From sequence record PP291582.1: a stretch of DNA of 44,773 nucleotides. One strand, written 5' to 3'. Source of the stretch: Escherichia phage vB_EcoS_UTEC10. Shown in pieces: positions 1,532 through 40,864 of the stretch (positions are counted from its first letter, which is position 1; every line of letters starts with the position of its first letter). The notes below the pieces were generated by a model. The model saw only the letters and a program-made list of their open reading frames with translations. It was not told the DNA's origin and made no database searches. The translations under genes and the position numbers were made by a program.

Positions 1532-1560
1532 AATATAATAGGGTCGTAGGTAATAGTCAA
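1532..1560 (-). promoter_or_regulatory. sigma70-like promoter (TTGACT-N17-TATATT) for the leftward small-gene operon
   Basis: Minus-strand reading gives TTGACT, a 17-nt spacer and TATATT; shares the TATAATAGGG core of the repeated promoter element. Confidence 0.4.
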
Positions 1561-1591
1561 CTAGTCATTGCAGAAAATAGATAAAAAAAAA

Positions 1592-4388: not shown

Positions 4389-4882
4389 TTCTTTAACCCG
4401 CATTTAAGGCACATACAAGGAAACCCGACTCCGTAAAATTGCCATTCGTGCTCGCATTCCTGAGTATAGTTTTTCGGTTTATATTCCTCGTCATCCCACT
4501 CACGTTTACCACATTTAGAACAAAGCTCGCTACCAGGAACGTTGTTCGGATTGCCTTCACTGAGAAACAACCCAGGCATAATAATCCAAGAGTGCTCACA
4601 TTCCTGAGTATCTTCCTTACGGCAACCTGATTGCTCGGGTCCGTGTTCACCTACTACGTAGCTCACCCCTTTCGGCAGCGGGCCGCCGCGTTTTGTGACG
4701 CGGTTGAAATCCTCGTTCATCAGCTTTATTGTTTCCTGTAGCTCATCCACCAGCGCCGACGCGTCACGTAACTGATTCTTAAGTGACTGCACCTCATGCG
4801 CCAGGTCTTCGCACTGGTTGCTGTTTACCTGCTGCCGTAGTTGGTCAATCAGGTACTCGAATACTTCGTTTTTACTGTTCAT
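4385..4882 (-). CDS. coiled-coil / zinc-ribbon protein
   Basis: 165 aa; N-terminal heptad-like region, C-terminal Cys-rich region with repeated QECEH.W and CxxC motifs. Confidence 0.5.
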   Translation of the reverse strand: MNSKNEVFEYLIDQLRQQVNSNQCEDLAHEVQSLKNQLRDASALVDELQETIKLMNEDFNRVTKRGGPLPKGVSYVVGEHGPEQSGCRKEDTQECEHSWIIMPGLFLSEGNPNNVPGSELCSKCGKREWDDEEYKPKNYTQECEHEWQFYGVGFPCMCLKCGLKK

Positions 4883-5039
4883 TTTTCTGTTGCTCCCGGT
4901 CTCTTTTTAACATTTCATTGGCTTCCGCCAGTGCCTCTTTCCAGGTATCGAACTGGCGCCCATTGCACACCCACGGAGCACCTTTATAATTTCCTCTACG
5001 TCTTAAGTACCCGTATGATACCGCTTCTTTAAACGTCAT
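4872..5039 (-). CDS. hypothetical small protein
   Basis: Track ORF 4872..5054 (GTG); ATG at 5039 with GGAGAGA RBS; first gene downstream of the promoter at 5071-5099. Confidence 0.4.
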   Translation of the reverse strand: MTFKEAVSYGYLRRRGNYKGAPWVCNGRQFDTWKEALAEANEMLKRDREQQKNEQ

Positions 5040-5070
5040 CTTCCATCTCTCCACTCGTCGGTGTAAATGA

Positions 5071-5099
5071 ATAGTAGCCTATTCTATCTTAGTGTGCAA
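5071..5099 (-). promoter_or_regulatory. promoter TTGCAC-N17-TACTAT with embedded AATAG-N4-CTATT inverted repeat
   Basis: Minus-strand reading of 5071-5099; inverted repeat at 5070-5083 lies in the spacer. Confidence 0.5.
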
Positions 5100-5106
5100 G
5101 TAAATT

Positions 5107-5280
5107 TTATTGGTGTGTTATAGAGTCGATGAACGCCAGTAACTCGCGCTCCGCTTCTGCTTCTCTTTCTTCAAGCAACCAGGTAGCGGATTCCTCTGTT
5201 GCCGTTGCTATATCGGTTTTCACATCAATCATCGTGTCTATTAACGCGATTAATCGTTCGGCCTGTTCTTTAGTAATCAT
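5107..5280 (-). CDS. hypothetical small acidic protein (57 aa)
   Basis: Manually translated (MITKEQAERLIALIDTMIDVKTD...); AGGAGA RBS 7 nt upstream; opposite-strand track ORF 5129..5341 is low-complexity. Confidence 0.4.
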   Translation of the reverse strand: MITKEQAERLIALIDTMIDVKTDIATATEESATWLLEEREAEAERELLAFIDSITHQ

Positions 5281-5415
5281 TGTTGCATCTCCTGCAATAA
5301 TCGCTTCTATTGTTGCGTTCGGTGAAAGTGTCGCTTTTTGACGACACTAATCTAAAGTTGTACGCTGCTGTGTAGCAGCGTAAGTCACTCAGTCAAATAG
5401 TAACCTATTGACCTG

Positions 5416-5616
5416 TTACACCAGTTTCGGCGGTTTAGGCAATTTCCTCCAGTGCGTTATATCCTCGTTGTCTATGACAGAGTTGAATTCATCCCAACTA
5501 TCCCACTCATCCGAATCATCATCGAACCATTTAATCTCAACCTCTCCCCCATCAGTCACAAGTACATGAGAGAAAGGAGCGGGCATCTGCTCACTGCACT
5601 TAATCCACTTACCCAT
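5416..5616 (-). CDS. DUF551-like phage protein
   Basis: MGKWIKCSEQMP...THWRKLPKPP pattern typical of small DUF551 phage proteins. Confidence 0.45.
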   Translation of the reverse strand: MGKWIKCSEQMPAPFSHVLVTDGGEVEIKWFDDDSDEWDSWDEFNSVIDNEDITHWRKLPKPPKLV

Positions 5617-5766
5617 ATCTCACCTCGTATTCATCACAGCTTGCACACCAGCTTTCCACGCCCGCCACGCTAGACGCGTCTTAATGTTCAGGTACTCTTT
5701 CTTTGAACCTTTGTTAACCGGCAGACCCTCGACGACAGCCCACCGTTCGAATGCTTCTCTCACAAC

Positions 5767-6033
5767 TCACCCCATCTTCTCTTTAACGTGCACCCAAAAC
5801 TCACCACAGTACCAGCACCACATAAGATTAGGCGTCTCGCGCACCCAACCGTAATCCTTGCGGGCACGAATCGGGATAATACCCTTAGTGAAATAATAAC
5901 CTGTTCGCAGAAACTCAGGGTCGCGAGTCGCAGTGCGCCACATGTTATAAAACTGCTCCAGCCCGGAACCCCGGCGCATGACCCGTATTTTATGGTTATA
6001 TTCCGCTACTGTTTTCAGTTCAGTGTTATTCAT
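5767..6033 (-). CDS. hypothetical protein
   Basis: 88 aa track ORF; ATG start; ATGA overlap with the upstream gene stop. Confidence 0.5.
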   Translation of the reverse strand: MNNTELKTVAEYNHKIRVMRRGSGLEQFYNMWRTATRDPEFLRTGYYFTKGIIPIRARKDYGWVRETPNLMWCWYCGEFWVHVKEKMG

Positions 6034-6284
6034 TTACGGCAACCTCCCTCAGAGTCGTCGGCACGGGCATCATGATTCGATGCCGTTGTGAATGATGCGG
6101 AAGCAACATCGAAGAAACTAACGGTTAAAGTCTCGCCCACAGCGTCCTCTAAATCCCATTCATCACCGTCTTCATCTAAAACGTATCGACGGCCGTCGTA
6201 ATATACTCCCGACGAATACTTGTTACCTTTTACAAACCAATGCTGCACATCTGGACCAGATTCAATACAAATTAATTCTCCCAT
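6030..6284 (-). CDS. hypothetical protein
   Basis: Track ORF 6030..6287 (GTG); ATG at 6284. Confidence 0.45.
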   Translation of the reverse strand: MGELICIESGPDVQHWFVKGNKYSSGVYYDGRRYVLDEDGDEWDLEDAVGETLTVSFFDVASASFTTASNHDARADDSEGGCRK

Positions 6285-6469
6285 CACTTCGCCCCTTTGA
6301 ATTTAAAATTGTTGCCGATGAGTGTTAAATCACATTTACGGAGCAGTCCCTTACCAAACCCAGCTACGCTATTAACCTCAACAAAACCGAACCACATTAG
6401 CTTCGACTCTATTACAGTGAATAAATCGCCGCTAAATTTATCCCTAACCAACTGACCTTTCTTAAACAT
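6284..6469 (-). CDS. hypothetical protein
   Basis: Track ORF 6284..6478 (GTG); ATG at 6469 with AAGGGGTGAGG RBS. Confidence 0.45.
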   Translation of the reverse strand: MFKKGQLVRDKFSGDLFTVIESKLMWFGFVEVNSVAGFGKGLLRKCDLTLIGNNFKFKGAK

Positions 6470-6487
6470 AACCCTCACCCCTTTGTC

Positions 6488-6706
6488 TTATTTAAAGTAG
6501 ATAGCGAATTTCTTGTAACCAGCAGGCTCGTTACGAAGCCCTTTACCGTTGGCGAAACGTTGTACGTTGTTAAAATCATTTTCATCCATTCCGTCGGTGT
6601 CGAACGTAAAGAAGCTGCGTTTGTTCCCGATAATTACGCGCTCTGAAATATCGATGCCGTAAACTTCTTTGATTGCGGAAACCACGCTTGCGGTCGCTTT
6701 GTTCAT
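6488..6706 (-). CDS. hypothetical protein, first gene of a leftward early operon
   Basis: 72 aa track ORF; ATG with AAGGAAT RBS; directly downstream of the promoter at 6741-6769. Confidence 0.5.
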   Translation of the reverse strand: MNKATASVVSAIKEVYGIDISERVIIGNKRSFFTFDTDGMDENDFNNVQRFANGKGLRNEPAGYKKFAIYFK

Positions 6707-6740
6707 TTCTGAATTCCTTATGTCTCGTTTCGATAAGTGA

Positions 6741-6769
6741 ATAGTATCCTATTATGTTGGGGTGTGCAA
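6741..6769 (-). promoter_or_regulatory. promoter TTGCAC-N17-TACTAT with embedded AATAG-N4-CTATT inverted repeat
   Basis: Same architecture as the 5071-5099 promoter; inverted repeat at 6740-6753. Confidence 0.5.
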
Positions 6770-7142
6770 GAGAATAGTTACGTTGCCGTTGTGATTCTTC
6801 AGGTAGGGTTGTGCCTTTATTCTTATTACTTGGTAACTAAAGGGCAGGCCCTAAGCCTGCCCAATAATCGTTACATTTTTACGGTTGCGAATCTACGGCA
6901 CTTTAAGAAAATCAGATACTTAAGATATATTCCGCCGATGGGAATAGAGCTTGCCCAGGGCAACCGGAGATACTTAGGAAGGAAAGTTACGATAATTCGA
7001 ATGTTCAGTAAACTGCCGCCTAACACTTCGCGTTGGGCGCTCGTTTTCGGCGGGTTTTACAAGGTGAACAGGAATCAAAGTAACTAAGATATAGAAGCAC
7101 CTTAAACGAAGATTTTCTTAATGTCAATAGGTGCGATTATGT

Positions 7143-7171
7143 TTGATTTCCCATTATTCGCAATGTATACT
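7143..7171 (+). promoter_or_regulatory. sigma70-like promoter TTGATT-N17-TATACT for the rightward operon
   Basis: Near-consensus hexamers with 17-nt spacer in the 460-bp divergent intergenic region; lacks the AATAG/CTATT repeat. Confidence 0.5.
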
Positions 7172-7203
7172 TGGTTTCGTTAACTGATAATGGGGGTTTG
7201 AGA

Positions 7204-7374
7204 ATGACACAGAATGAAGTAGCCGAGCGTATTGGGGTTACCCGTCGCACGCTGAATAACTGGTTAAAGAGTGGGAAGTTCCCGGATTGTTGTATCCGTA
7301 TTATGGGCCGCCGGCAGCCGGGTACTTTCGACCCGGAGAAAGTGGAAGCGTGGATTAAGGAGAATGTAAAATGA
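7204..7374 (+). CDS. AlpA/Xis-like HTH transcriptional regulator
   Basis: Internal ATG of track ORF 7171..7374; MTQNEVAERIGVTRRTLNNWLKSGKFP resembles AlpA-family HTH proteins. Confidence 0.5.
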   Translation: MTQNEVAERIGVTRRTLNNWLKSGKFPDCCIRIMGRRQPGTFDPEKVEAWIKENVK

Positions 7375-7604
7375 CCGAGTTCCAGTCCCGCGTATTTACG
7401 GCAGTCGTTTCATTAACCTGTAAAAAAGGGTCGTGCAGCGTTATGGACTTGCGCCGTAGTTATTTTAGGTACTATAGTTCCGCCATTATTGAAGGGTCGT
7501 TGAAGGTACTGGTTAAATCTGGTGTCGTGAAAAATGTTGGCGGGAAATATAGTGCTGTTGCCGAAGTTCGCGGAATGACCGCTACTTTAGAAGACCTGGA
7601 ATAA
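7371..7604 (+). CDS. hypothetical protein with C-terminal LEDLE tail
   Basis: 77 aa; ATGA overlap with the upstream gene; C-terminus ...ATLEDLE. Confidence 0.45.
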   Translation: MTEFQSRVFTAVVSLTCKKGSCSVMDLRRSYFRYYSSAIIEGSLKVLVKSGVVKNVGGKYSAVAEVRGMTATLEDLE

Positions 7605-7662
7605 AAGAAAGCCCCGACGCGGTGAACGCCGAGGCTAAATTACTTGCTGAAGGAAATATAAC

Positions 7663-9903
7663 ATGTCCGATGTAATTTTATCCTACTCGTGGTCTCGTCG
7701 CAACGCGCGGGCGGAGAAAAAGGATATAAACGTCAGAACCACACACACGGCAACGCTGGGCGACCTGAAAGATTTAATCCAGCCGCTTGATGCTGTCCGT
7801 GACGGAATTAACCCGAAGACCGCACCCGGTTATATCACCGCCGCGTGCGACTCCACACACAGCACCGTAAAAGACCCGGAAACAGGCGACTTTAAGCAGG
7901 CGCGTAAAGGCTTCTTCTATCGCTGTGATGCGTCTGTAAGCAAATCGTCGCTGGCGTATCTTGACTTCGACAGTGCAACGCCGGAAGAGTATCAGGAAGC
8001 GGTGCGCCTGGTTAAGCGCAGCCGCCAGGCGATGTGTCTCTACACCACGGCATCACATACCGACGAGTCGCCGCGCTTTCGCGTCGTCATGCCGCTGGCC
8101 CGCCCGGTTGAAGGTGGCGACATCATCCGTGTTCGCCATGGATTACTGGAGCACTTCTTCAAAGGCATGGGCGCGGACCGCAGCGGGTTCACTCTGTCGC
8201 AGCCGATGTACCTGCCGCCAGTTGGCGCTACTGTTATCTGGTCGCGCCGCAACGACCTGATTGACCCTGATGAGTTACTGGAAGGCGTCCCAGCCGTTGA
8301 CATCAGCAGCGCATCTGACTACCAGATACCGGAAGAACTGCGCACTGCGTTTACTGATGCGTTTGAGGCACTGGCGTTCGAGTACGGTGGCATCATGACG
8401 CCGCGCGGACTAAAAATGCCAGCTACACCGGAACACGCAGAGAACTACAGCGACCCGACGCCGCGCTCGGACGACTTCCTGCTGTGCTTCCCACGCGAGG
8501 GGTATGAAGCGCCGAACGTAACCATGATTCACGACACCGACATCACGGCAACCGAAGGCATGTCACCGAAAGAGGTGTGGAAATATGCGTGCGATGCGAC
8601 CGGGCTGCCGTTCAGTGAGGTCGCTGAGGCCATCGGTTGGGGTGCGCGTGAATCAGTTTCATGCAGTCTCGACGACCTGGAAGACGATGAGGACTCAGAG
8701 GAGGACGAGTTACCGGAGCCGGTAAAGGCTGATTTCGTCGTAGAAGGGTACATGCCGTCGGATTGCATATGGGATATTGTTGGGGAATCCGGTACGTATA
8801 AATCATTCTATACGCTGGGGATGATGTACCTCAGCGCCGCCGGATACCGGTTTGCAGGGGCGGATACCCAGCGTTGCCACCATTTCTATATTGACGGTGA
8901 GGGCGGCGCGGCCACACGCACACGTATCGATGCGCTCGCGGCTAAATACGGCGAGGAAGGTAAAGATTATGTACATGTTATCGACATGGGTGAAGTCGGA
9001 AAACTTAAAAGCCTGATTAAGTTAATGCGCGAAACTGCTGGCGACGAGCCAATCGGTATGGTCGCGTTCGACACCCTTAACCAGACGCTGGCCCTGACGA
9101 TTGATAAGTTCGACGAGAACAGTTCATCAACGGCAATCGGCATGGGTAAAGTTATCGCTATCCTGAAAGAAGTGCGTGATGCGACTAAAGCCGCAGTGGG
9201 CGTTGTGCACCATACGCCGAAGGGCGGAAAGAAAGCCCGTGGTAGTGGAGCATTGTATGCGGGTGTCGACGTGGAGCTGACAATCGAACGCGCGACCGAC
9301 CGTCAGATAAATGTATACCACTCTAAATTTAAGCACGGGCCCCAACAGAAGACGGTTGGTATGGTGCTGGAGTCTGTACAGTTCCGTGAAGCTCCGCCGC
9401 CGAAAGAGTACCGTGCGGTTGAGTTTCTTGGTAGTACAGAGGAATACGGCACAATCGTTAACCTGGACCTGCCTGAGCCTCACAAGGCGCTTGTGCTGAT
9501 GCCGTGGGGCTTCGAGCCGTTCAAAACTGACGAGGAGAAAGAGCGGGAAGAAGGGCTGACAAAGGAAGGTAAAGAAAACGTAAAGAATGCTGTAAAACGC
9601 GGGAAGGATGAAGGGCGTAAGGAGTCAATACTCGCCGCGCTGGAAGACCTGCAACAGTCCGACGACACCGGACGGGGTTTCACCCAACGGCAGATAGTAG
9701 CGAACTCCGGCGACCACGCCATCACAAACCACCATCTCGAGAAGATGTTGAAAGACGGTGAGTTGATGCTAGGGTGTGATGCCAACGGTGAAGTTATACC
9801 AGGAACATACCGGATACCTGAAAAGATGGGCGACAGATTAAGACCGAAGACAATATACGAACCGAATGAAATGCTTACAGTGACCGAGGAAGATTTGGAA
9901 TAG
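7663..9903 (+). CDS. bifunctional DNA primase / RecA-fold (DnaB/T7 gp4-like) helicase
   Basis: 746 aa; N-terminal primase-like region (RFRVVMPLARP), central acidic linker, C-terminal Walker-A-like GESGTYKS and HHTPKGG...RGSGAL motifs as in gp4-type helicases; ends EEDLE. Confidence 0.75.
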   Translation: MSDVILSYSWSRRNARAEKKDINVRTTHTATLGDLKDLIQPLDAVRDGINPKTAPGYITAACDSTHSTVKDPETGDFKQARKGFFYRCDASVSKSSLAYLDFDSATPEEYQEAVRLVKRSRQAMCLYTTASHTDESPRFRVVMPLARPVEGGDIIRVRHGLLEHFFKGMGADRSGFTLSQPMYLPPVGATVIWSRRNDLIDPDELLEGVPAVDISSASDYQIPEELRTAFTDAFEALAFEYGGIMTPRGLKMPATPEHAENYSDPTPRSDDFLLCFPREGYEAPNVTMIHDTDITATEGMSPKEVWKYACDATGLPFSEVAEAIGWGARESVSCSLDDLEDDEDSEEDELPEPVKADFVVEGYMPSDCIWDIVGESGTYKSFYTLGMMYLSAAGYRFAGADTQRCHHFYIDGEGGAATRTRIDALAAKYGEEGKDYVHVIDMGEVGKLKSLIKLMRETAGDEPIGMVAFDTLNQTLALTIDKFDENSSSTAIGMGKVIAILKEVRDATKAAVGVVHHTPKGGKKARGSGALYAGVDVELTIERATDRQINVYHSKFKHGPQQKTVGMVLESVQFREAPPPKEYRAVEFLGSTEEYGTIVNLDLPEPHKALVLMPWGFEPFKTDEEKEREEGLTKEGKENVKNAVKRGKDEGRKESILAALEDLQQSDDTGRGFTQRQIVANSGDHAITNHHLEKMLKDGELMLGCDANGEVIPGTYRIPEKMGDRLRPKTIYEPNEMLTVTEEDLE

Positions 9904-9912
9904 GTAAAAAGA

Positions 9913-9931
9913 AAGGGGCGTTAAGCCCCTT
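9913..9931. terminator. hairpin overlapping the stop codon of the XRE gene
   Basis: AAGGGGC-GTTAA-GCCCCTT stem-loop; T-rich flank on the minus strand. Confidence 0.4.
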
Positions 9932-10136
9932 CACCGAACGCCAGCCACTTAGCGTCTACTTCCAGCACTTCCGCCAGTTTAAACAGCGTCGACGGGCGGA
10001 CGTCCTGAGTCACCCCGAGTGCCAGCTGGTTAATTGCGCCCTGGGAAACGCCAGCCAGAACAGCCAGACGGCGCTGGGAGATACCTAATTCTTTACGGCG
10101 TTGCTCTACACGGATGCCTAGTTCAGATGGTTGCAT
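9921..10136 (-). CDS. XRE-family (Cro/CI-type) HTH transcriptional regulator
   Basis: 71 aa; LGISQRRLAVLAGVSQGAINQLALG is a canonical HTH_3 motif; lone minus-strand gene in the plus-strand replication block; AAGGAG RBS. Confidence 0.8.
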   Translation of the reverse strand: MQPSELGIRVEQRRKELGISQRRLAVLAGVSQGAINQLALGVTQDVRPSTLFKLAEVLEVDAKWLAFGEGA

Positions 10137-10166
10137 ATCAATTACTCCTTAGTCAGTTGATATGTG

Positions 10167-10180
10167 AATAGTACCATATT
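10167..10180 (-). promoter_or_regulatory. operator-like half-palindrome overlapping an extended -10 (TGG-TACTAT) for the XRE gene
   Basis: GAATAG-TACC-ATATT imperfect copy of the AATAG-N4-CTATT repeat; TGGTACTAT on the minus strand about 25 nt upstream of the XRE start. Confidence 0.4.
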
Positions 10181-10200
10181 AATTATTTTAGAAAAGCCCA

Positions 10201-10230
10201 TTGACATAATGAATAGTTCGCTATTATAGT
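10201..10230 (+). promoter_or_regulatory. strong sigma70-like promoter TTGACA-N18-TATAGT with embedded AATAG-N4-CTATT repeat
   Basis: Consensus -35; inverted repeat at 10212-10225 in the spacer; drives the acidic-protein gene. Confidence 0.6.
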
Positions 10231-10261
10231 TAACCCATACCAAACGAGAGGAGAGAAACAA

Positions 10262-10762
10262 ATGTTAGACCAATTTTTAAAATTACTGGAACGTTTCGTA
10301 GTCGCGCATGAACTGATTGCCGCAAACAGTGTGAAACGACCGGTGCCGCCGACTGAGCGTGTGGGCGAAATGCTTGTAGACGTGTCAGTTACGGGAGAGG
10401 TACTTGAAGTCGACCCGGGCACCGGCGTCGGGAAAGAAATCCCGGTCGAAGGCGAAGACGTCGTCGACACTAAACCGGCAGAAGAAGAGAAGCCGAAACG
10501 CAAGCCGCGTAAAGCTAAAGTAGATGAACCGACGCCAGAGCCGGAAGAAGAAGTCGATTACCAGTCTCTTCGTGACCAGATTCAGGCTATCGACGATGCG
10601 ATTAACGAAGGTCCTAGCGATGCTGCGTGCGATGATTCCGATGAACTGCTGGAAGAGTTCACCGGTAAGAAAATGAAGATTGCCGCGATTAAAGACGAAG
10701 ACCTGGCGGAATACCTGGAGCGCCTGACAGCAATCAAGAACAAGTATTTCGAAGAAGAATAA
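10262..10762 (+). CDS. highly acidic protein
   Basis: 166 aa rich in Asp/Glu with a short basic patch (KPKRKPRKAK); strong RBS GAGAGGAGAG; flanked by promoter and terminator. Confidence 0.55.
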   Translation: MLDQFLKLLERFVVAHELIAANSVKRPVPPTERVGEMLVDVSVTGEVLEVDPGTGVGKEIPVEGEDVVDTKPAEEEKPKRKPRKAKVDEPTPEPEEEVDYQSLRDQIQAIDDAINEGPSDAACDDSDELLEEFTGKKMKIAAIKDEDLAEYLERLTAIKNKYFEEE

Positions 10763-10769
10763 ATATACC

Positions 10770-10788
10770 GCGGCCTTCGGGCCGCTTT
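10770..10788 (+). terminator. Rho-independent terminator/attenuator
   Basis: GCGGCC-TTCG-GGCCGC hairpin followed by TTT. Confidence 0.5.
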
Positions 10789-10805
10789 AACTGAGGGTCG
10801 GAAAT

Positions 10806-11078
10806 ATGATTTACCAACTCTACCGCGCCGTTGACAGACGGGACAACACGGAGGCGCTATGGTTATTGCGTGCACCGTCCGGCGCGCACCAGATGGAAGA
10901 GATGGCGTACTTAGGAAAAGTACCGCGACCTAAAGATATAGGCCGCCACGTGTCGCAGATTAAGCGCACGACTTTCGCCAAACCTGACTTTTATGTCTTC
11001 GAGTCAATGTATGGGTGGGCTATGCATTGTCATCACCAAACGCGACATTTAATTGACCAGTGGGAGAACAGGGTATGA
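10806..11078 (+). CDS. hypothetical protein
   Basis: 90 aa; GAGGGT RBS; stop overlaps the start of the exonuclease gene (ATGA at 11075). Confidence 0.5.
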   Translation: MIYQLYRAVDRRDNTEALWLLRAPSGAHQMEEMAYLGKVPRPKDIGRHVSQIKRTTFAKPDFYVFESMYGWAMHCHHQTRHLIDQWENRV

Positions 11079-12316
11079 TTTTAAAGGAACGCGGCGGCAA
11101 CAACGATGTGCACGCCTTACTATCACCGTCGGGTGCTAAGAAGTGGCTAACCTGCGCGGCGTCACTGGCCTGTGAAAAAGATATTCCTAACACGTCAGGT
11201 AAGGCCGCAGTGTTAGGCACAGCTATGCACACTATAGCTGAGGTCCATCTAAACCAGTACATCAAAGGCACTGCGTTACCGTTAGAGCGCGAAGTTGGCG
11301 CTTACGTGCTGGATGAGGGTAAAGGACAGATTAAGGCGTTAATCAGCCCGATGAAAGGCGCGGTACTGATTACGGCTGACATGATTGAACAGGTTCGCAA
11401 GTACACCGACTACTGCAAAGCGATTATCGATGTAGCGACTTACGCCAAGCTGGAAATGCGCGTCAATCTTACTGAGGTGTTGCACCCAGGCTACGAAGGC
11501 GTCGAGACGTTCGGAACGGCCGACCTTGTTGCCGTGCAGGAACTGGCCAACACCGACGAGCACATGCTTATTATCGGCGACCTGAAAACTGGACGACATC
11601 GTGTCGAAGCGAAAGAAAACAAGCAGCTTATGCTTTACGCTCTCGGTGTTTATCGCCGACTCAAGAGACGTTATAACATCACCGTTGTTCGTCTGGTCAT
11701 CTTTCAGCCGTATGCTGGAGGTGCGTCGGAGTGGGACATCTCGGTTGAAGGCCTTGAACTGTTCGCTAAGTTTGCGCAGAAACGCGCACTGTTGGCTCTC
11801 GATGCGTATTCCCGTGGCAAGAAGAATCTGAAAGCGTCGGACTTCAGGCCGTCGGTAGACGGTTGTCAGTGGTGCCGGTTCTCTGAACAGTGCGCCGCGC
11901 GTACAAAAACCGTTAACGCGGTACTGGCGGAAGAACTGGAAGACGACTTTGCGCTGGAACTGACACCAGAGCAACTCGTAACTGAGTATGAGAAATTGCC
12001 GCTGTTGCGCCAGCATATCGACAAGGTTGAAAAAGCTATGGCTGCTGCGTTGCATTCCGGTAAAAAAGTTCCTGGGTACAAACTGGTAGAAGGTCGCCCG
12101 GGTAATCGTGCGTGGAAAGACGCAGAGAAAGTAGCAGAACTCTACGGCGACAAGCTGACTAAAGAAGTGCTCATGACGCCAACCGAAGCTGTTAAAGTCA
12201 TACCGGAAGAAGAGCTGAAAAACTTCATTACCCGTAAGCCCGGTGCACCATGTGTCGCAACGGCAGACGACAAACGCCCTGAGTGGAATCAGGTTAGTGA
12301 AGAAGATTTGGAATAA
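11075..12316 (+). CDS. PD-(D/E)XK exonuclease, Cas4/RecB-like (DUF2800-type)
   Basis: Internal ATG of track ORF 11060..12316; LLSPSGAKKWLTC N-terminus, IIGDLKTG...EAKENKQLMLYAL nuclease motifs, C-terminal CQWCRFSEQC cysteine cluster; ends EEDLE. Confidence 0.7.
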   Translation: MILKERGGNNDVHALLSPSGAKKWLTCAASLACEKDIPNTSGKAAVLGTAMHTIAEVHLNQYIKGTALPLEREVGAYVLDEGKGQIKALISPMKGAVLITADMIEQVRKYTDYCKAIIDVATYAKLEMRVNLTEVLHPGYEGVETFGTADLVAVQELANTDEHMLIIGDLKTGRHRVEAKENKQLMLYALGVYRRLKRRYNITVVRLVIFQPYAGGASEWDISVEGLELFAKFAQKRALLALDAYSRGKKNLKASDFRPSVDGCQWCRFSEQCAARTKTVNAVLAEELEDDFALELTPEQLVTEYEKLPLLRQHIDKVEKAMAAALHSGKKVPGYKLVEGRPGNRAWKDAEKVAELYGDKLTKEVLMTPTEAVKVIPEEELKNFITRKPGAPCVATADDKRPEWNQVSEEDLE

Positions 12317-12320
12317 AGTG

Positions 12321-12349
12321 TTGACACCTGAATAGTTAGCTATTATAGT
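12321..12349 (+). promoter_or_regulatory. sigma70-like promoter TTGACA-N17-TATAGT with embedded AATAG-N4-CTATT repeat
   Basis: Consensus -35; inverted repeat at 12331-12344. Confidence 0.6.
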
Positions 12350-12402
12350 TCTAATCACTGGCCGGGCAGCTCCCGGAGTAAACTGAAAAGCGAGAAATCA
12401 CG

Positions 12403-13029
12403 ATGGGTATTAAACTGAATCTGCGTAAAGTAAACACTGCTTGGGTTAACGTATTCGAACGCGAAAAAGACCGTGAAAACGATGATGGCTCCATCACTAA
12501 AGGCCAGTACAGCGCGACTATCATCTTGCCGTCTGACCATGCTCAAATTGATGCGCTCTACGACACAGTTTACGCTGTAGTTGAAGAAGCGTTAGGTGCA
12601 GCCGCTGCCGAGAAGTGGATGAAGTCCAACTACGGCGAAGGTAAGCACATGGATAAATGCGCGATTAAAGACATTGCCGAGCGCGACAATCCGTTTGAAG
12701 ACTTCCCGGAAGGCTTCTACTTCAAGGCGAAGGCACAGAAACAGCCACTGATTGTAACCTCTAAAAAAGGTGAGACTCAGGTAGAGCAGGACTTCAACGT
12801 AGATGGTGAACAGATTGAAGGCGAACAGGTTTACAGCGGATGCGTCGCTAACGTAAGCGTCGAAATCTGGTTCAGCCAGAAATACAAAGTTCTCGGTGTT
12901 AACCTGCTGGCAATTAAATACGTCGGCGAAGGTAAAGCGTTCGGTGGTTCTAAAGTCGCAGCAAGTGTCAATGACCTGGAAGACGACGAAGAAGATGAAG
13001 CACCTCGCCGCGAACGTCGTCGCCGCTAA
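12403..13029 (+). CDS. ssDNA-binding-like protein (DUF2815-type) with acidic/basic C-terminal tail
   Basis: 208 aa; follows the DUF2800 nuclease as in the conserved nuclease / SSB-like / polymerase phage module; C-terminus DLEDDEEDEAPRRERRRR. Confidence 0.55.
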   Translation: MGIKLNLRKVNTAWVNVFEREKDRENDDGSITKGQYSATIILPSDHAQIDALYDTVYAVVEEALGAAAAEKWMKSNYGEGKHMDKCAIKDIAERDNPFEDFPEGFYFKAKAQKQPLIVTSKKGETQVEQDFNVDGEQIEGEQVYSGCVANVSVEIWFSQKYKVLGVNLLAIKYVGEGKAFGGSKVAASVNDLEDDEEDEAPRRERRRR

Positions 13030-13048
13030 CATCTGAATCAATTTAACT

Positions 13049-13072
13049 AAGGCCCTTCATTGGGCCTTTTTA
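13049..13072 (+). terminator. Rho-independent terminator
   Basis: AAGGCCC-TTCATT-GGGCCTT hairpin followed by TTTT. Confidence 0.55.
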
Positions 13073-13085
13073 CTAAGGGTCGAAA

Positions 13086-13244
13086 ATGATGTTTTTCTGT
13101 AAACACGTTTATCGCTATATGAAACCGCTTCCTTGGTACGCGGATGAGTACCGGGCCGGGTACAGGCATGTGTGTATTTGCCGTGATTGTATGAAAATAA
13201 GACTCAGCGAAACGAAGGCACTGGATTTAAGGAAAAAGAAATGA
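13086..13244 (+). CDS. small Cys-rich protein (52 aa) coupled to the DNA polymerase gene
   Basis: Manually translated (MMFFCKHVYRYMKPLPWYADEYRAGYRHVCICRDCMK...); AAGGGT RBS; stop overlaps the polymerase ATG (ATGA at 13241). Confidence 0.35.
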   Translation: MMFFCKHVYRYMKPLPWYADEYRAGYRHVCICRDCMKIRLSETKALDLRKKK

Positions 13245-15412
13245 GCTACTTATACCTGGACTTTGAAACCTACAGCGACATCGATTTGAAGAAAGTCGGT
13301 TCCTACGCTTACGCCGAACACCCGTCAACCGAAGTGCTTATCTGCACATATGCTTTTGACGATGAGCCTGTAAGGGTATGGGATTGCACCGACGGCAGCG
13401 ACATGCCGGGCGATTTGCACCGCGCCTTGCGCCGCCTGGTGAAACCGAACAGTCGCATTAAGATGGTGTGGCACAACGGCTCAATGTTCGACCGTCTCAT
13501 CATGAAGCACTGCTGGGACTTTGATATTCCGGTAAGCAACACCATTGATACGATGATTTGGGCGTTTCGTCACGCGCTGCCGGGGTCACTCGATGCGTTG
13601 TGTGAAGTGCTTGGCGTATCTGCGGACAACGCAAAAGACAAACGCGGCAAGGCGCTCATACAACGTTTCTCTAAACCGACGCCGAAGAACTACAAAATCC
13701 GCCGCTACACCGCTGAAACGCACCCTGATGAGTGGGCGCTGTTCATCAAGTACGCCGTGAGTGACATCACTGCGATGCGTGAAGTCTTCCATAAGCTGCC
13801 GCGGTGGGGTAACTCCGAGTTCGAAGACCGTGTACTGGAGCTGGACCAGCTAATTAATGACCGCGGGTTTAAGGTTGACGTAGCGCTGGCGGAAGCTGCG
13901 ATTGAGGCTGTGGAGAAACACAAAGCGCAGTTACAGGAAGAAGCCCAACGTAAATACGGCGGCTCGCTGACTGGTAAGGATTTTCTGCCGATTCTGCGTG
14001 AACTGGCACCCGCGCACCGCATCCACAATGCGCAGAAGTCGACGCTGAATGACCTGCTGGCAGACGATGACTTACCTGACGACGCACGTACGATTATTGA
14101 AATGCGCCTTGGTGCGGCGTCCACTGCGTCAACGAAATATAACCCGCTGCTGTTGGGCCGCTCGTCGGACGACCGCCGTCGTGGTTGCATCCAGTATGGC
14201 GGGGCAAAGCGTACGCTACGGTTCGCCGGTAAAGGCTTTCAGCCGCAGAACCTGGCGCGCGGGTACTATCACGATGATGAACTGGATAAAGGCATTTCAG
14301 CGTTACTTAAGGGTCGTGCGCACCGCCGATTTGACGTAGCCAAGCTAACGGCATCAACGGTGCGTAGCTGCATTATCCCGGAAGCCGGGCATAAGTTTGT
14401 TGTCGCTGATTACTCGAACGTTGAAGGTCGCGGTCTTGCGTGGCTGGCGGGTGAAGACGATTTAATCGAAGTATTTGTAAACGGGGTTGATGTGTACAAG
14501 AAACTAGCATCAACGGTGTTCAACGTCGCGTATGAGGCCGTAACAAAGGACCAAAGACAAATCGCTAAAGCAATGGTTCTGGGCCTCGGCTACGCGGGGG
14601 GCGTAGGTGCTTTTGTCACGTTTGCTAAAAACTTAGGTCTTGATTTGAACGATATGACCAGCACTTTAGACGGGTCATTCCCTGACCACATCTGGGCCGC
14701 TACCGCACGCGGATATGAGTGGGCACGCATTCAGGAGGCCAAGAGACCGCCGCGGCCTGGTGAAAAGGATGACAGACCGTCGTATATTCTTGATAAGAAA
14801 GTGTGGCGTACCTGCGACGCTTTAAAGCGCATGTACCGAGAAGCTAATCCCGCAATAGTCCAATTCTGGCGGGATATTGAAGACGCGGCTATGGCAGCTA
14901 TCCGCAATCCGGGTAAAGAGTTCACCGCGGGGCCGCGAGGCGTTAAGTTTTCGCGTAACGTAGAGACAGATAACAACGGCAACAAAGTCGCCGGTTGGTG
15001 GTTGCGCATGACGTTGCCGTCGGGTCGTGTTATGTCCTACCCTGGCGTCGGATTAAGTGTGTCGAAAGAGACAGATGAAGACGGAAAGGTGTCTACTAAC
15101 GTGCGCATCAAGTATCAGGGTGAAAATCAGTTAACCCGTCAGTGGGGATTCCAGTACACATATTCCGGTAAACTCGTGGAAAACTGCACTCAGGCGCTGT
15201 GCCGTGATTTGCTGGCTAATGCACTGCTGAACGTAGAGGCAAACGGCTACCCGATTGTGCTTCATGTCCACGATGAGATTATCTGCGAGACACCAGATTT
15301 ACCAGAATACAATGTCGCAGAACTGGAACGATTGATGTGCGAATTACCGGAATGGGCCGAGGGGTTCCCTCTTGTAGCAGAAGGTGCGGAGATGAAGCGT
15401 TATGCTAAGTAA
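13241..15412 (+). CDS. family A DNA polymerase with N-terminal 3'-5' exonuclease domain
   Basis: Internal ATG of track ORF 13187..15412; LYLDFETYSD is an Exo I motif; C-terminal region has PolA-like motifs including HVHDEII. Confidence 0.85.
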   Translation: MSYLYLDFETYSDIDLKKVGSYAYAEHPSTEVLICTYAFDDEPVRVWDCTDGSDMPGDLHRALRRLVKPNSRIKMVWHNGSMFDRLIMKHCWDFDIPVSNTIDTMIWAFRHALPGSLDALCEVLGVSADNAKDKRGKALIQRFSKPTPKNYKIRRYTAETHPDEWALFIKYAVSDITAMREVFHKLPRWGNSEFEDRVLELDQLINDRGFKVDVALAEAAIEAVEKHKAQLQEEAQRKYGGSLTGKDFLPILRELAPAHRIHNAQKSTLNDLLADDDLPDDARTIIEMRLGAASTASTKYNPLLLGRSSDDRRRGCIQYGGAKRTLRFAGKGFQPQNLARGYYHDDELDKGISALLKGRAHRRFDVAKLTASTVRSCIIPEAGHKFVVADYSNVEGRGLAWLAGEDDLIEVFVNGVDVYKKLASTVFNVAYEAVTKDQRQIAKAMVLGLGYAGGVGAFVTFAKNLGLDLNDMTSTLDGSFPDHIWAATARGYEWARIQEAKRPPRPGEKDDRPSYILDKKVWRTCDALKRMYREANPAIVQFWRDIEDAAMAAIRNPGKEFTAGPRGVKFSRNVETDNNGNKVAGWWLRMTLPSGRVMSYPGVGLSVSKETDEDGKVSTNVRIKYQGENQLTRQWGFQYTYSGKLVENCTQALCRDLLANALLNVEANGYPIVLHVHDEIICETPDLPEYNVAELERLMCELPEWAEGFPLVAEGAEMKRYAK

Positions 15413-15533
15413 ACTGATTATCGCAGTACTGGCGGGATTTGCTGTCGGTGTCTACTGTCACGAGGGCCAATACGGCATGATGGTTGCCATATTGGGCATG
15501 TTCATCGCAATTTATATGTGGGTGCTGGAATGA
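15402..15533 (+). CDS. small two-TM membrane protein (43 aa)
   Basis: Manually translated (MLSKLIIAVLAGFAVGVYCHEGQYGMMVAILGMFIAIYMWVLE); overlaps the polymerase 3' end in another frame. Confidence 0.3.
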   Translation: MLSKLIIAVLAGFAVGVYCHEGQYGMMVAILGMFIAIYMWVLE

Positions 15534-15619
15534 AAATTTACTGGTTCTATGAAGAAGACTGCCGAATCTGTCCGCGCTGCGGAGTTGAGCATACGAAACG
15601 TGAGGGGTGCGTATTATGA
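15530..15619 (+). CDS. micro-protein with CxxC...CxxC-like zinc-ribbon pattern (29 aa)
   Basis: Manually translated (MKIYWFYEEDCRICPRCGVEHTKREGCVL); ATGA overlaps at both ends. Confidence 0.25.
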   Translation: MKIYWFYEEDCRICPRCGVEHTKREGCVL

Positions 15620-15810
15620 GTAACAAACCATTTAGTAAGAAACTAGCGGCGTTGGTGGATATGCCAGAATGGGAATTTATCATGGTAATGGGTTATGGGT
15701 TCTTCAGTGACGTTTGCGCCGGGTGTACGCACAAAGGCGTTTACTATTCGGAACACGACATCTATCAAGCGTACTTCCTGCGTAATCCAGATGCGGAGCC
15801 TTTGCTGTGA
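15616..15810 (+). CDS. hypothetical protein
   Basis: Internal ATG of track ORF 15607..15810 (MSNKPFSKK...). Confidence 0.45.
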   Translation: MSNKPFSKKLAALVDMPEWEFIMVMGYGFFSDVCAGCTHKGVYYSEHDIYQAYFLRNPDAEPLL

Positions 15811-16109
15811 CACCGGAAGGAAAAATACAGAAATACGCAAAAGAGCAATTCGAGGCCATTGGTGGCCTCGTTCGTAAACTTTCCTATGAGGGGCGCTCCG
15901 GCGCTCCCGACCTTCTGGTAATTCTCCCCGGCGGCATCGTCTGGTTCGTCGAGGTGAAGAAAGATGAAAACACGAAGCCAGACCCACACCAGCTACGGGA
16001 ACATGAGCGTATGCGTAAACGTGGTGCAAATGTTTTTGTCGTTGGTTCGTTTAAACAGGTTGACGACCTAATAGCGAACTATTATAGTAGTCATACACCA
16101 ACAATATAA
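15807..16109 (+). CDS. VRR-NUC domain nuclease
   Basis: GAPDLLVILPGGIVWFVEVKKD matches the VRR-NUC PD-(D/E)XK motif; GTG start overlapping the upstream stop. Confidence 0.65.
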   Translation: MTPEGKIQKYAKEQFEAIGGLVRKLSYEGRSGAPDLLVILPGGIVWFVEVKKDENTKPDPHQLREHERMRKRGANVFVVGSFKQVDDLIANYYSSHTPTI

Positions 16110-19055: not shown

Positions 19056-19059
19056 AGAA

Positions 19060-28446: not shown

Positions 28447-28863
28447 CTACTTTTCCTGCAATTGGTGTAGCTGTTCATTGTGGAAAACAACAACGTGTTC
28501 AGCGAGGCGTTTATATTGTGAGAAAAGGGTATTCAGGTTCTCTTTATTAAATTCATCGTCGAGACTCCAACCGTTAACTAGTTCAAGTGCTAACTGGCGG
28601 TTAAGGTCCGTCGCGGCGTCTTCCATCTTAATATTGTATTCCGAGAAATCTTTCAGTTCCTCGCATTTATCACGAAGCGGTTTCAATTTACCTAATGCCG
28701 CGCGGTACGCAAGTGTAAACGCCCTCATAGCTTTAACAGCAACGTCTGCCTCCGGTGAAACAACGTTAAGCCACTCCCCTGAATCGGTGCCGTCTTTCAG
28801 TGGGATCGGCATACGGGCGCCTTTTTCCGCCTCAGCTTCGTAATAAAAATCGGAAAGTTTCAT
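28447..28863 (-). CDS. tail assembly chaperone (lambda G-like)
   Basis: 138 aa acidic protein immediately upstream of the T-frame ORF and tape measure gene. Confidence 0.5.
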   Translation of the reverse strand: MKLSDFYYEAEAEKGARMPIPLKDGTDSGEWLNVVSPEADVAVKAMRAFTLAYRAALGKLKPLRDKCEELKDFSEYNIKMEDAATDLNRQLALELVNGWSLDDEFNKENLNTLFSQYKRLAEHVVVFHNEQLHQLQEK

Positions 28864-28970: not shown

Positions 28971-28999
28971 TTGCAGGCCCCAATATAATAGGGTACTAT
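28971..28999 (+). promoter_or_regulatory. cassette promoter TTGCAG-N17-TACTAT with embedded TATAAT and AATAG-GGTA-CTATT repeat
   Basis: CCAATATAATAGGGTACTATTCA is repeated near-identically at 38644-38668 and 40816-40840. Confidence 0.55.
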
Positions 29000-29029
29000 T
29001 CACTTACACCAACAATGGAGGAATTTAAA

Positions 29030-38636: not shown

Positions 38637-38665
38637 TTGCGGACACCAATATAATAGGGTACTAT
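38637..38665 (+). promoter_or_regulatory. cassette promoter TTGCGG-N17-TACTAT with embedded AATAG-GGTA-CTATT repeat
   Basis: Near-identical to the promoters at 28971 and 40809. Confidence 0.55.
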
Positions 38666-38691
38666 TCATTACAACGAAACGAGGAGGGTGT

Positions 38692-40808: not shown

Positions 40809-40837
40809 TTGCAGACACCAATATAATAGGGTACTAT
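40809..40837 (+). promoter_or_regulatory. cassette promoter TTGCAG-N17-TACTAT with embedded AATAG-GGTA-CTATT repeat
   Basis: Third copy of CACCAATATAATAGGGTACTATTCA. Confidence 0.55.
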
Positions 40838-40864
40838 TCAGTTAACTTAAGCAGGAGATGAAAA

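What the first reader, a model, noticed from the sequence alone, without database searches (positions are those of the whole stretch)
9904..10261. Divergent regulatory region around a lone XRE-type regulator in a virulent-looking genome
A Cro/CI-type HTH gene is the only minus-strand gene in the replication block. Its upstream region contains two operator-like sites (10167-10180 and 10212-10225) and back-to-back promoters, resembling a genetic switch, yet no integrase or excisionase partner is present. It may be an early-to-middle transcription switch rather than a lysogeny repressor.
Basis: partly seen in the sequence, partly recalled or inferred. Interest (0 to 1): 0.5.

Follow-up and report, generated by a model that had tools for sequence, protein, structure and literature searches.

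The report
Cro-like repressor with genome-wide promoter operators
A strictly lytic E. coli phage carries a small Cro-like DNA-binding protein, and its two predicted binding sites belong to a set of about ten matching palindromes built into the phage's promoters, which points to a genome-wide transcription brake rather than a lysogeny switch.

Summary
The window is a full-length Kagunavirus genome (Guernseyvirinae). Gene 9921-10136(-) encodes a 71-aa protein with the phage 434 Cro fold. Site 2 lies in the spacer of a near-consensus rightward promoter. Site 1 covers an extended -10 element for the regulator's own gene.

The new point is that these sites are not a local pair. The palindrome AATAG-N4-CTATT occurs 10 times against 0.6 expected. 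Every copy overlaps a core promoter element, 13-114 nt upstream of a start codon, in three different registers. Half-sites are invariant in 39 Kagunaviruses while the centre varies. Jerseyviruses keep the motif at orthologous promoters. Cornellviruses carry a different motif (ATTAG-N4-GTATTA) throughout the genome.

I found no integrase, and no prophage copy in 5,426 E. coli genomes.

Best reading: an autoregulated, Cro-type global repressor of the non-structural promoters. Binding is not shown, and the recognition-helix residues do not track the motif change cleanly. The lysogeny reading is rejected.

The parts
9921..10136 (-). Regulator gene: 71-aa Cro/CI-type (XRE, HTH_3) protein, monocistronic
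   Evidence: ORF. Pfam HTH_3 E=1.5e-12. Best solved relative is phage 434 Cro, E=5.6e-7 over residues 6-68. The AF2 model has five helices at pLDDT 84, and the top Foldseek hit is 2cro (40% identity, TM 0.78/0.85).
9911..9932 (-). Intrinsic-terminator-like hairpin overlapping the regulator's stop codon; the T-run is on the minus strand only
   Evidence: It lies between the primase-helicase stop (9903) and the regulator's stop (9921).
10145..10150 (-). Shine-Dalgarno sequence AAGGAG of the regulator gene
   Evidence: Sequence; SD flagged.
10166..10181 (.). Site 1 (GAATAGTACCATATTA): operator-like palindrome with one half-site mismatch (AATAT instead of AATAG)
   Evidence: Nearly invariant in 39 Kagunaviruses.
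10168..10176 (-). Proposed promoter of the regulator: extended -10 TGgTACTAT lying inside site 1, with no recognisable -35
   Evidence: Read from the sequence. It was not detected by the consensus scan. It has the same -10 (TACTAT) as the class II promoters.
10201..10230 (+). Rightward promoter P(+): TTGACA-18-TATAGT (class I)
   Evidence: 11 of 12 matches. The -35 and -10 are invariant in 39 genomes; the spacer is 17 or 18 nt.
10211..10226 (.). Site 2 (GAATAGTTCGCTATTA): perfect AATAG-N4-CTATT palindrome in the spacer of P(+)
   Evidence: Half-sites are invariant; central positions 10219-10220 and flank 10207-10209 vary.
10262..10762 (+). First gene of the P(+) unit: 166-aa acidic protein of unknown function (PHROG 3127)
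   Evidence: This slot is mosaic among Kagunaviruses.
12321..12349 (+). Class I promoter TTGACA-17-TATAGT with palindrome 12330-12345 in its spacer; drives the SSB and DNA polymerase genes
   Evidence: Orthologous in Ent2, St162 and PhiSTP1.
16060..16088 (+). Class I promoter TTGACG-17-TATAGT with palindrome 16069-16084 in its spacer; drives the small 63-aa gene at 16121, the methyltransferase and the SNF2 helicase
6739..6754 (-). Class II leftward promoter (TTGCAC-17-TACTAT) with the palindrome over its -10; drives the leftward early genes from 6706
5069..5084 (-). Class II leftward promoter with the palindrome over its -10; gene starts at 5039
5395..5410 (-). Further AATAG-N4-CTATT palindrome, 114 nt upstream of the gene at 5280; promoter assignment uncertain
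28986..29001 (+). Class II rightward promoter with the palindrome over its -10; drives the + strand phosphoesterase / HAD phosphatase / AAA cluster embedded in the minus-strand structural block
38652..38667 (+). Class II rightward promoter with the palindrome over its -10; drives an endonuclease VII-like gene, 38692-39231
40824..40839 (+). Class II rightward promoter with the palindrome over its -10; drives a 53-aa gene at 40865
1551..1566 (-). Degenerate palindrome (ACTAG-TTGA-CTATT) overlapping the -35 of TTGACT-17-TATATT (class III); possibly a weak operator at the promoter that leads towards the packaging and structural genes
   Evidence: The equivalent site in Ent2 is at 40728.

Best explanation
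The 71-aa protein is a Cro-type repressor working in a strictly lytic phage, with no CI partner.

Inferred mechanism:
- Dimers bind a 14-bp palindrome, AATAG-N4-CTATT, which has the same 14-bp span as 434 operators.
- The palindrome is built into the core of about ten host-RNA-polymerase promoters: between -35 and -10 (class I), over the -10 (class II), or over the -35 (class III, degenerate).
- Binding in any of these positions should exclude RNA polymerase.
- At its own locus, the perfect site 2 would shut the strong rightward promoter of the replication genes. The imperfect site 1 would cover the regulator's own extended -10 promoter, giving weaker negative autoregulation.

The overall result would be one small protein setting a genome-wide negative feedback on the non-structural transcription units: the leftward early genes, three rightward replication units and three antisense inserts in the structural block.

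What is shown: the fold, the sites, their enrichment, their placement in promoters, their conservation, and the absence of a lysogeny apparatus.
What is inferred: that this protein binds them, that binding represses, and when during infection it acts.
For: Fold.
- HTH_3 domain. 434 Cro is the best sequence match and the best structural match.

Site enrichment and placement.
- 10 sites against 0.60 expected, and 17 against 2.89 with mismatches.
- Every site lies 13-114 nt upstream of a start codon in the promoter's direction, almost all with an SD.
- The two best sigma-70 matches in bases 1-20000 (11 of 12) and one of the four 10-of-12 matches carry the palindrome in their spacer.
- The palindrome occupies three different registers and both orientations relative to transcription. 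This fits a repressor site rather than an RNAP-recognition element or a geometry-dependent activator.

Conservation.
- Across 39 Kagunaviruses the half-sites are invariant while the centre and flank vary.
- Jerseyvirus Ent2 keeps the half-sites at orthologous promoters with different central bases.

Genus-specific motif.
- Cornellviruses carry ATTAG-N4-GTATTA: 7 sites against 0.60 expected in St162, none in the window. The Kagunavirus motif has 0 sites in PhiSTP1.
- The hosts are closely related enterobacteria, so this argues for a phage-encoded factor.

Co-occurrence.
- The regulator's own upstream region carries the clade-specific motif in all three genera.
- It is the only recognisable sequence-specific DNA-binding protein present in all five genomes examined. 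The HTH_17 protein is absent from ST20, St162 and PhiSTP1. No other HTH was found in the St162 early region.

Literature.
- In Kagunavirus K1B4, a helix-turn-helix gene is one of only four early genes in RNA-seq (PMC12645636). I equate it with this regulator from gene order only.
Against: - There are no binding data of any kind.
- By analogy with 434 (my knowledge of the 434 complexes, not a test), the base-contacting positions are residues 32, 33 and 37. They read Q,G,Q in Kagunavirus and Q,S,H in both Jerseyvirus and Cornellvirus. Yet the motif groups Kagunavirus with Jerseyvirus against Cornellvirus, so protein and motif do not covary simply.
- The Cornellvirus motif is consistently asymmetric (half-sites ATTAG and AATAC), which is unusual for a homodimer.
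- The whole replication module is diverged in Cornellviruses, so the motif change cannot be pinned on this one protein.
- Class II promoters were assigned by eye. TTGCAN-17-TACTAT matches only about 7 of 12 positions and fails the scan's thresholds.
- Class II copies share about 45 nt, so they are partly paralogous rather than independent samples.
- The promoter-like site upstream of the primase-helicase operon (7143-7171) has no palindrome, so the regulon is not universal.
Confidence: 0.55

Rival explanations
1. The palindrome is bound by a different phage-encoded factor, either an unrecognised small early protein or a factor that modifies RNA polymerase. In this case the XRE protein has other or only local targets.
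For: The canonical recognition-helix positions do not track the motif change. The early regions hold many small proteins with no family match. The whole early and replication module differs between the clades that differ in motif.
Against: The XRE protein is the only recognisable DNA-binding protein common to all five genomes. A 14-bp palindrome is what a 434 Cro-like dimer binds. Two copies flank its own promoter in every clade. The one named alternative, the HTH_17 protein, is absent from ST20 and from the Cornellviruses although the motif system is present there.
Confidence: 0.17
2. The palindromes are not protein operators. They are shared ancestry or a sequence preference of a family of duplicated phage promoters (AT-rich spacer and -10-like elements), and the XRE protein regulates something else.
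For: Class II copies share about 45 nt beyond the palindrome. The right half-site overlaps or abuts the -10 hexamer in classes I and II.
Against: The same palindrome appears in three registers and two orientations relative to -35 and -10. Half-sites are conserved while central bases drift, both within and between genera. The motif changes genome-wide in Cornellviruses, whose hosts use essentially the same RNA polymerase.
Confidence: 0.1
3. The protein is a dual regulator. It represses the class I promoters but activates, or is required for, the weak class II promoters, as R-M controller C-proteins or phi29 p4 do.
For: Class II promoters match the sigma-70 consensus poorly (about 7 of 12) yet head real genes. 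C-proteins are among the structural neighbours.
Against: In class II the palindrome covers the -10 hexamer itself. The start codon is only 13-32 nt downstream at most of these promoters, so no alternative -10 fits. A protein sitting there should block open-complex formation.
Confidence: 0.06
4. It is a lysogeny (CI-like) repressor of a temperate phage whose integrase lies elsewhere or has recently been lost.
For: Many GenBank records call it a 'repressor' or 'DicA'. The divergent arrangement resembles an immunity region. The 434 repressor N-terminal domain is also a hit.
Against: The protein is 71 aa with no C-terminal domain. No integrase or recombinase was found in 28 ORFs. The window is collinear with a complete 44.5-kb genome. 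There is no match in 5,426 complete E. coli genomes and none above 49% identity in 185,579 species genomes. The group is described as strictly lytic.
Confidence: 0.02

Closest known systems
Phage 434 Cro (and the lytic role of lambdoid Cro proteins)
   Same: Same length (71 aa). Best sequence match (E=5.6e-7) and best fold match (TM about 0.8, 40% identity). Single-domain HTH. The candidate operator spans 14 bp with conserved outer bases and a free centre, like ACAA-N6-TTGT (434 operator recalled from knowledge). It sits beside a strong divergent early promoter, and an operator over its own promoter implies autoregulation. Cro's known job is to turn down early promoters during lytic growth.
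   Different: There is no CI partner, no OR1-3 tandem array, no integrase and no lysogeny. The operators number about ten and are dispersed, not six at OL and OR. The two local sites are 45 bp apart. The recognition helix is different (SQGAINQ against KQQSIQL), and so is the operator sequence.
Dispersed-operator phage repressors: P1 C1 and mycobacteriophage L5 gp71 'stoperators' (from my knowledge, not tested here)
   Same: One phage repressor with many copies of a short site scattered across the genome, controlling many transcription units.
   Different: Both are temperate-phage immunity repressors with asymmetric sites. L5 sites mostly lie within transcription units and block elongation. Here the sites are palindromic, sit inside core promoters, and the phage is virulent.
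Restriction-modification controller (C) proteins such as C.AhdI, C.BclI and C.Esp1396I
   Same: Small XRE dimers of about 70-80 aa among the structural neighbours. They bind palindromes at their own promoter and act as timing devices.
   Different: C-boxes are two adjacent operators upstream of a C/R operon. Here there is no adjacent R-M pair, the sites are 45 bp apart, and they are repeated genome-wide.
DicA / P22 C2-type prophage repressors (the GenBank label on this gene)
   Same: HTH_3 domain. P22 C2 N-terminal domain is a weaker hit (E about 5e-3).
   Different: Those are two-domain immunity repressors of (defective) prophages. This protein lacks the C-terminal domain and any prophage context.

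Membership tests
Cro/CI-type (XRE, Pfam HTH_3) DNA-binding domain | Sequence match to HTH_3 above the curated threshold | tested here: met
   47.8 bits against a cut-off of 23, E=1.5e-12, residues 11-65.
Cro/CI-type (XRE, Pfam HTH_3) DNA-binding domain | Five-helix 434 Cro / repressor fold | tested here: met
   The AF2 model has helices at 5-17, 21-28, 32-39, 48-57 and 62-67, pLDDT 84. Top Foldseek hits are 2cro, 1pra and 3cro. The model is single-sequence, so confidence is moderate.
Lambdoid Cro (lytic repressor of an immunity region) | Single-domain protein of about 60-75 aa | tested here: met
   71 aa, with one domain covering the whole length.
Lambdoid Cro (lytic repressor of an immunity region) | Divergently transcribed CI repressor partner sharing a tripartite operator | tested here: not met
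   The divergent gene is a 166-aa acidic protein with no HTH. There are only two local sites, 45 bp apart. The only other HTH found by scanning the xre neighbours, the early-region proteins tested and the larger ORFs is the HTH_17 protein at 7171-7374; the many small leftward early ORFs were not scanned.
Lambdoid Cro (lytic repressor of an immunity region) | Binds pseudo-palindromic operators overlapping early promoters as a dimer | not testable with these tools
   Candidate operators with the right size, symmetry and position exist. Binding itself needs EMSA or footprinting.
CI-type lysogeny repressor / temperate lifestyle | C-terminal oligomerisation or S24 autocleavage domain | tested here: not met
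   The protein ends 3 residues after helix 5. No Peptidase_S24 hit.
CI-type lysogeny repressor / temperate lifestyle | Integrase or recombinase in the genome | tested here: not met
   No such Pfam domain in 28 larger ORFs. None is annotated in ST20, Ent2, St162 or PhiSTP1. The window is full length.
CI-type lysogeny repressor / temperate lifestyle | Prophage copies in host genomes | tested here: not met
   No megablast match for window 7600-12400 in 5,426 complete E. coli genomes. The best XRE relative in 185,579 species genomes is 49% identical and comes from unrelated taxa.
Global dispersed-operator phage repressor (P1 C1 / L5 gp71 type; functional class, not a homology family) | Many copies of one operator distributed over the genome at separate transcription units | tested here: met
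   10 perfect-core sites plus degenerate ones, at 10-12 separate loci, each upstream of a gene.
Global dispersed-operator phage repressor (P1 C1 / L5 gp71 type; functional class, not a homology family) | The repressor maintains prophage immunity | tested here: not met
   No lysogeny apparatus and no prophages.
R-M controller C-protein | Gene immediately upstream of, or overlapping, a restriction endonuclease gene, with paired adjacent C-boxes | tested here: not met
   The gene is monocistronic on the minus strand, bounded by a terminator. The only methyltransferase-like gene is 6 kb away at 16309-16992.

The most novel reading that the evidence does not exclude
In a whole subfamily of strictly virulent phages (Guernseyvirinae), a single 71-aa Cro-like protein governs most of the host-polymerase promoters through operators built into them. 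The operator and regulator pair has diverged between genera into distinct specificity groups, which would be 'immunity types' without lysogeny. If so, the protein supplied in trans should block infection by phages of its own group but not of the other. Operator strength (perfect, one-off, degenerate) would encode the temporal order of transcription.
Probability: 0.3. Interest if true: 0.6.

Novelty: new variant of a known kind. Interest (0 to 1): 0.45.

Why it matters
Relevance to phage use. Kagunaviruses and Jerseyviruses are widely isolated for phage therapy and food biocontrol, and Kagunaviruses have been proposed as small synthetic-biology chassis. Their genomes are routinely annotated with a 'repressor' or 'DicA' gene. 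That label can be misread as a lysogeny marker, and some papers state that no repressor is present. Showing that it is a partnerless Cro-type protein in a genome with no lysogeny apparatus removes that ambiguity.

Biology. A compact regulon of one 71-aa protein, one 14-bp palindrome and about ten promoters in three architectures would explain how a small virulent siphovirus without its own RNA polymerase organises transcription. It also yields predicted promoters, operators and a repressor as candidate parts for testing.

Testability. The genus-specific motif switch offers a natural specificity-swap experiment.

I found no functional study of this regulator or these sites in the paper library I could search. 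That library lacks most subscription journals, so prior description cannot be excluded.

Tried and rejected
- HTH_17 (Xis/AlpA-like) protein at 7171-7374 as the factor binding the palindrome. Its distribution at first seemed to fit: present in Kagunavirus and Jerseyvirus, absent in Cornellvirus. It was rejected because ST20, a Kagunavirus with 97% identical XRE and 8 motif sites, lacks it.
- A host factor or RNAP itself as the reader of the motif. Rejected because the motif switches genome-wide between phage genera that infect closely related enterobacteria.
- Searches for an integrase or a prophage. All negative.
- Covariation of recognition-helix residues with the motif. Inconclusive, and if anything unfavourable.
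- Another HTH protein in the Cornellvirus early region. None found.
A single-sequence model was used instead.
- The supplement of the K1B4 RNA-seq paper holds no phage gene table. The identity of 'gene 008' with this regulator therefore rests on gene order only.
- The Rfam scan found nothing at the locus.
- The consensus promoter scan found no minus-strand promoter for the regulator.
- Literature searches for a described operator or regulon in Guernseyvirinae found none.

Full report
WHAT THE WINDOW IS. The 2.2 kb around the finding matches 443 phage records at 80-95% identity. Nearly all are Escherichia Kagunavirus or Salmonella Jerseyvirus phages of the subfamily Guernseyvirinae, and the best match is phage ST20. 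The window (44,773 bp) is collinear from end to end with the complete 44,517-bp ST20 genome. The gaps are mosaic segments only. It is therefore a full-length genome, and a 'fuller assembly' has no room to hide a lysogeny module.

THE OBSERVATION. ORF 9921-10136(-) encodes 71 aa. It matches Pfam HTH_3 at E=1.5e-12. Its best relative among solved structures is phage 434 Cro, also 71 aa, at E=5.6e-7 and aligned over residues 6-68. The 434 repressor N-terminal domain follows. A single-sequence AlphaFold model (pLDDT 84, five helices) finds 434 Cro (2cro) as the top structural match, with 40% identity and TM 0.78/0.85.

It is the only minus-strand gene in the rightward replication block. A hairpin at 9911-9932, with a T-run on the minus strand only, ends it.

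They are 10167-10180 AATAGTACCATATT and 10212-10225 AATAGTTCGCTATT, the cores of a 17-nt repeat 45 bp apart. Site 2 fills the spacer of TTGACA-18-TATAGT (10201-10230, 11 of 12 matches).

The scan found no minus-strand promoter. By eye, site 1 contains TGgTACTAT on the minus strand (+10176..10168). This is an extended -10 with no -35, about 25 nt upstream of a good Shine-Dalgarno and the ATG. 'Back-to-back promoters' is therefore firm for the rightward one and plausible for the leftward one.

THE MAIN NEW FACT: THE SITES ARE TWO OF ABOUT TEN.
- AATA-N6-TATT occurs 10 times in the window against 0.60 expected (0 of 100 shuffles).
- Nine of the ten are perfect AATAG-N4-CTATT.
- GAATAGTNNNNTATTA with up to 2 mismatches gives 17 matches against 2.89 expected.
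- Every site lies in non-coding DNA, 13-57 nt (one at 114 nt) upstream of a start codon in the direction of an overlapping promoter-like element. Almost all have a Shine-Dalgarno.

Three promoter architectures appear.
- Class I is TTGACA-N3/4-[G/T]AATAG-N4-CTAT-TATAGT. The palindrome sits in the spacer, centred near -19. The copies are at 10211, 12330 (SSB and DNA polymerase) and 16069 (small gene, methyltransferase, helicase). They include the two best sigma-70 matches in bases 1-20000 and one of the four 10-of-12 matches.
- Class II is TTGCAN-N9-TAATAGGnTACTATTCA. The palindrome covers the -10 (TACTAT). Copies at 5069 and 6739 point leftward to the early genes. Copies at 28986, 38652 and 40824 point rightward to + strand inserts inside the minus-strand structural block. 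Site 1, for the regulator itself, is a variant without the -35. The site at 5395, 114 nt upstream of the gene at 5280, resembles class II, but its promoter assignment is uncertain.
- Class III is degenerate. The palindrome overlaps a -35 TTGACT at 1551 and 38561, both on the minus strand.

The asymmetric flanks of the motif (tGAATAGT...CTATTAt) are flipped relative to transcription between classes I and II. The palindrome thus behaves as an independent module placed in different registers over core promoter elements. This is what a repressor site looks like. It is not what an RNAP-recognition element or a geometry-dependent activator or antiterminator site looks like.

CONSERVATION. I aligned the intergenic region from 39 Kagunavirus sequences (36 IMG/VR loci with 94-99% identical XRE, L038 at 80%, ST20 and the window).
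- The -35, the -10 and the half-sites are invariant or nearly so.
- The variable positions are 10207-10209 (between the -35 and site 2, where length also varies), 10219-10220 (the centre of site 2) and 10233-10236.
- The gene downstream of P(+) is mosaic, with at least seven different N-termini, while the promoter, operator and leader are kept.

In Jerseyvirus Ent2 the XRE is 49-51% identical. TAATAG-N4-CTATTA appears at the orthologous promoters (SSB, resolvase, imm/phosphatase, leftward early) with different central bases. One- or two-mismatch versions flank the XRE gene. The count is 14 strand-matches against 0.82 expected.

A GENUS-SPECIFIC SWITCH. In Cornellvirus-type phages St162 and PhiSTP1 the XRE is 41-43% identical. 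The orthologous promoters there carry ATTAG-N4-GTATTA instead.
- St162 has 7 sites against 0.60 expected, and the window has none.
- The Kagunavirus motif has no match within one mismatch in PhiSTP1.
- The SSB promoter shows this cleanly. Its flanks are almost identical between the window and PhiSTP1, yet the half-sites differ at exactly two positions.
- The XRE's own upstream region carries the clade's own motif in each genus.

These phages infect closely related enterobacteria, whose RNA polymerase is (from general knowledge) nearly identical. A concerted genome-wide change therefore points to a phage-encoded reader.

WHICH PROTEIN READS THE MOTIF? The XRE protein is the only recognisable sequence-specific DNA-binding protein present in all five genomes I examined. 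The other candidate was a small HTH_17 (Xis/AlpA-like, PHROG 66) protein at 7171-7374. It is 81% conserved in Ent2 but absent from St162 and PhiSTP1. Decisively, it is also absent from ST20, which has the same motif regulon. No other HTH was found among St162 early proteins.

Against a simple pairing, consider the three positions that contact bases in the 434 complexes. They correspond to residues 32, 33 and 37 here, an analogy drawn from my knowledge of 434 and not a test. They read Q,G,Q in Kagunavirus and Q,S,H in both Jerseyvirus and Cornellvirus, whereas the motif groups the first two against the third. The Cornellvirus motif is also consistently asymmetric. The proteins are only 43% identical overall, so other residues could carry the difference, but the covariation test is not clean. 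I therefore put the claim 'this protein binds these sites and represses' at about 0.55.

NOT LYSOGENY.
- No integrase, recombinase or S24 domain appears in 28 of the larger ORFs.
- None is annotated in four related complete genomes.
- The 4.8-kb region has no match in 5,426 complete E. coli genomes.
- No close homologue exists in 185,579 species genomes.
- Published work treats the group as strictly lytic.

HOW IT MOST LIKELY WORKS. The protein is probably made early. In Kagunavirus K1B4, a helix-turn-helix gene is one of only four early genes (PMC12645636), and I equate it with this regulator from gene order only. Dimers would occupy the palindromes and exclude RNA polymerase from the non-structural promoters. 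The imperfect site 1 would give weaker autorepression.

Whether this is a Cro-like late turn-down, or an early brake later released (for example by titration on replicating genomes, or by convergent read-through from the primase-helicase operon into the xre gene), cannot be decided from sequence. The promoter-like element at 7143-7171 ahead of the primase-helicase operon has no palindrome. The promoters leading into the structural genes carry only degenerate copies. This is compatible with graded operator strength ordering transcription, but that remains speculation.

COMPARISON AND VERDICT. In fold, size and operator geometry this is a 434 Cro-like protein. It is not a member of a lambdoid immunity switch: it has no CI partner, no tripartite operator and no integrase. 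In how its sites are deployed it resembles the dispersed-operator repressors of P1 and L5, but in a virulent phage and with palindromes inside core promoters.

I found no description of this regulon in the searchable library, which lacks most subscription journals. I rate it a new variant of a known kind, of moderate interest. It is ordinary in its parts, tidy and directly testable as a system, and useful for correcting a misleading 'repressor' annotation in therapy-candidate phages.

Noticed in passing
window 28888-28952 (-): Borderline Rfam hit to the int-alpA RNA motif (RF02996): 36.4 bits against a gathering score of 35.8, E=5e-4. It lies upstream of the minus-strand gene 28863..28447 (tail-assembly-chaperone / tape-measure operon) and next to the class II promoter at 28986.
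   Followed up: no
window 7171-7374 (+): Small HTH_17 / Xis-AlpA-like protein (PHROG 66 'excisionase and transcriptional regulator'), the first gene of the primase-helicase operon. The likely true start is the internal ATG (MTQNEV...). It is 81% conserved in Jerseyvirus Ent2 but absent from ST20, St162 and PhiSTP1.
   Followed up: yes
window ~12362-12376 (+), 5' leader of the SSB gene: Hairpin CCGGG-cagct-CCCGG in the leader downstream of the SSB promoter. It is conserved in three genera, with a compensatory change in PhiSTP1 (CCTGG...CCAGG). Its folding energy is not better than shuffles (z=0.64). It could be a translational operator or attenuator.
   Followed up: partly
window 10262 onward; loci L002-L038: The first gene downstream of the conserved P(+), operator and leader is mosaic among Kagunaviruses. 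At least seven unrelated N-termini are seen (MLEKFL.., MTNNRKAK.., MNIITGAI.., MAKRKDY.., VDVKDW.., MKFRVDM.., MHTDS..).
   Followed up: no
window 29259-31425 (+): A plus-strand cluster inside the minus-strand structural block: calcineurin-like phosphoesterase, HAD_PNKP phosphatase and an AAA_18 P-loop protein. It looks like a split polynucleotide kinase/phosphatase-type set, driven by the class II promoter at 28986.
   Followed up: no
window 38692-39231 (+): Endonuclease VII-like gene (PHROG 1035) with its own class II promoter, antisense to the structural genes. This segment has no counterpart in ST20 (gap 38623-39261).
   Followed up: no
L041 (St162) 9779-12685; L056 (PhiSTP1) 14353-17001: In Cornellvirus-type genomes the primase-helicase gene lies downstream of the XRE gene on the same strand. 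This is an inversion relative to the window. The XRE / divergent-promoter junction with the exonuclease-SSB-polymerase genes is kept.
   Followed up: partly
window 1551-1566 (-) and 38561-38576 (-): Degenerate copies of the palindrome whose centre is TTGA, so that the -35 hexamer TTGACT overlaps the right half-site. The 1551 promoter follows a terminator and points towards the small genes and then the terminase. Ent2 has the equivalent site at 40728.
   Followed up: partly
window 9904-9932: The hairpin between the convergent primase-helicase and XRE genes has a T-run only on the minus strand. Rightward transcription may therefore read through antisense to xre.
   Followed up: no
window 24362-25750 (-): A 462-aa ORF in the tail region (PHROGs 11600, 384 and 5939: virion or tail protein). 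It falls largely in a segment with no DNA match to ST20 (gap 24359-25303).
   Followed up: no
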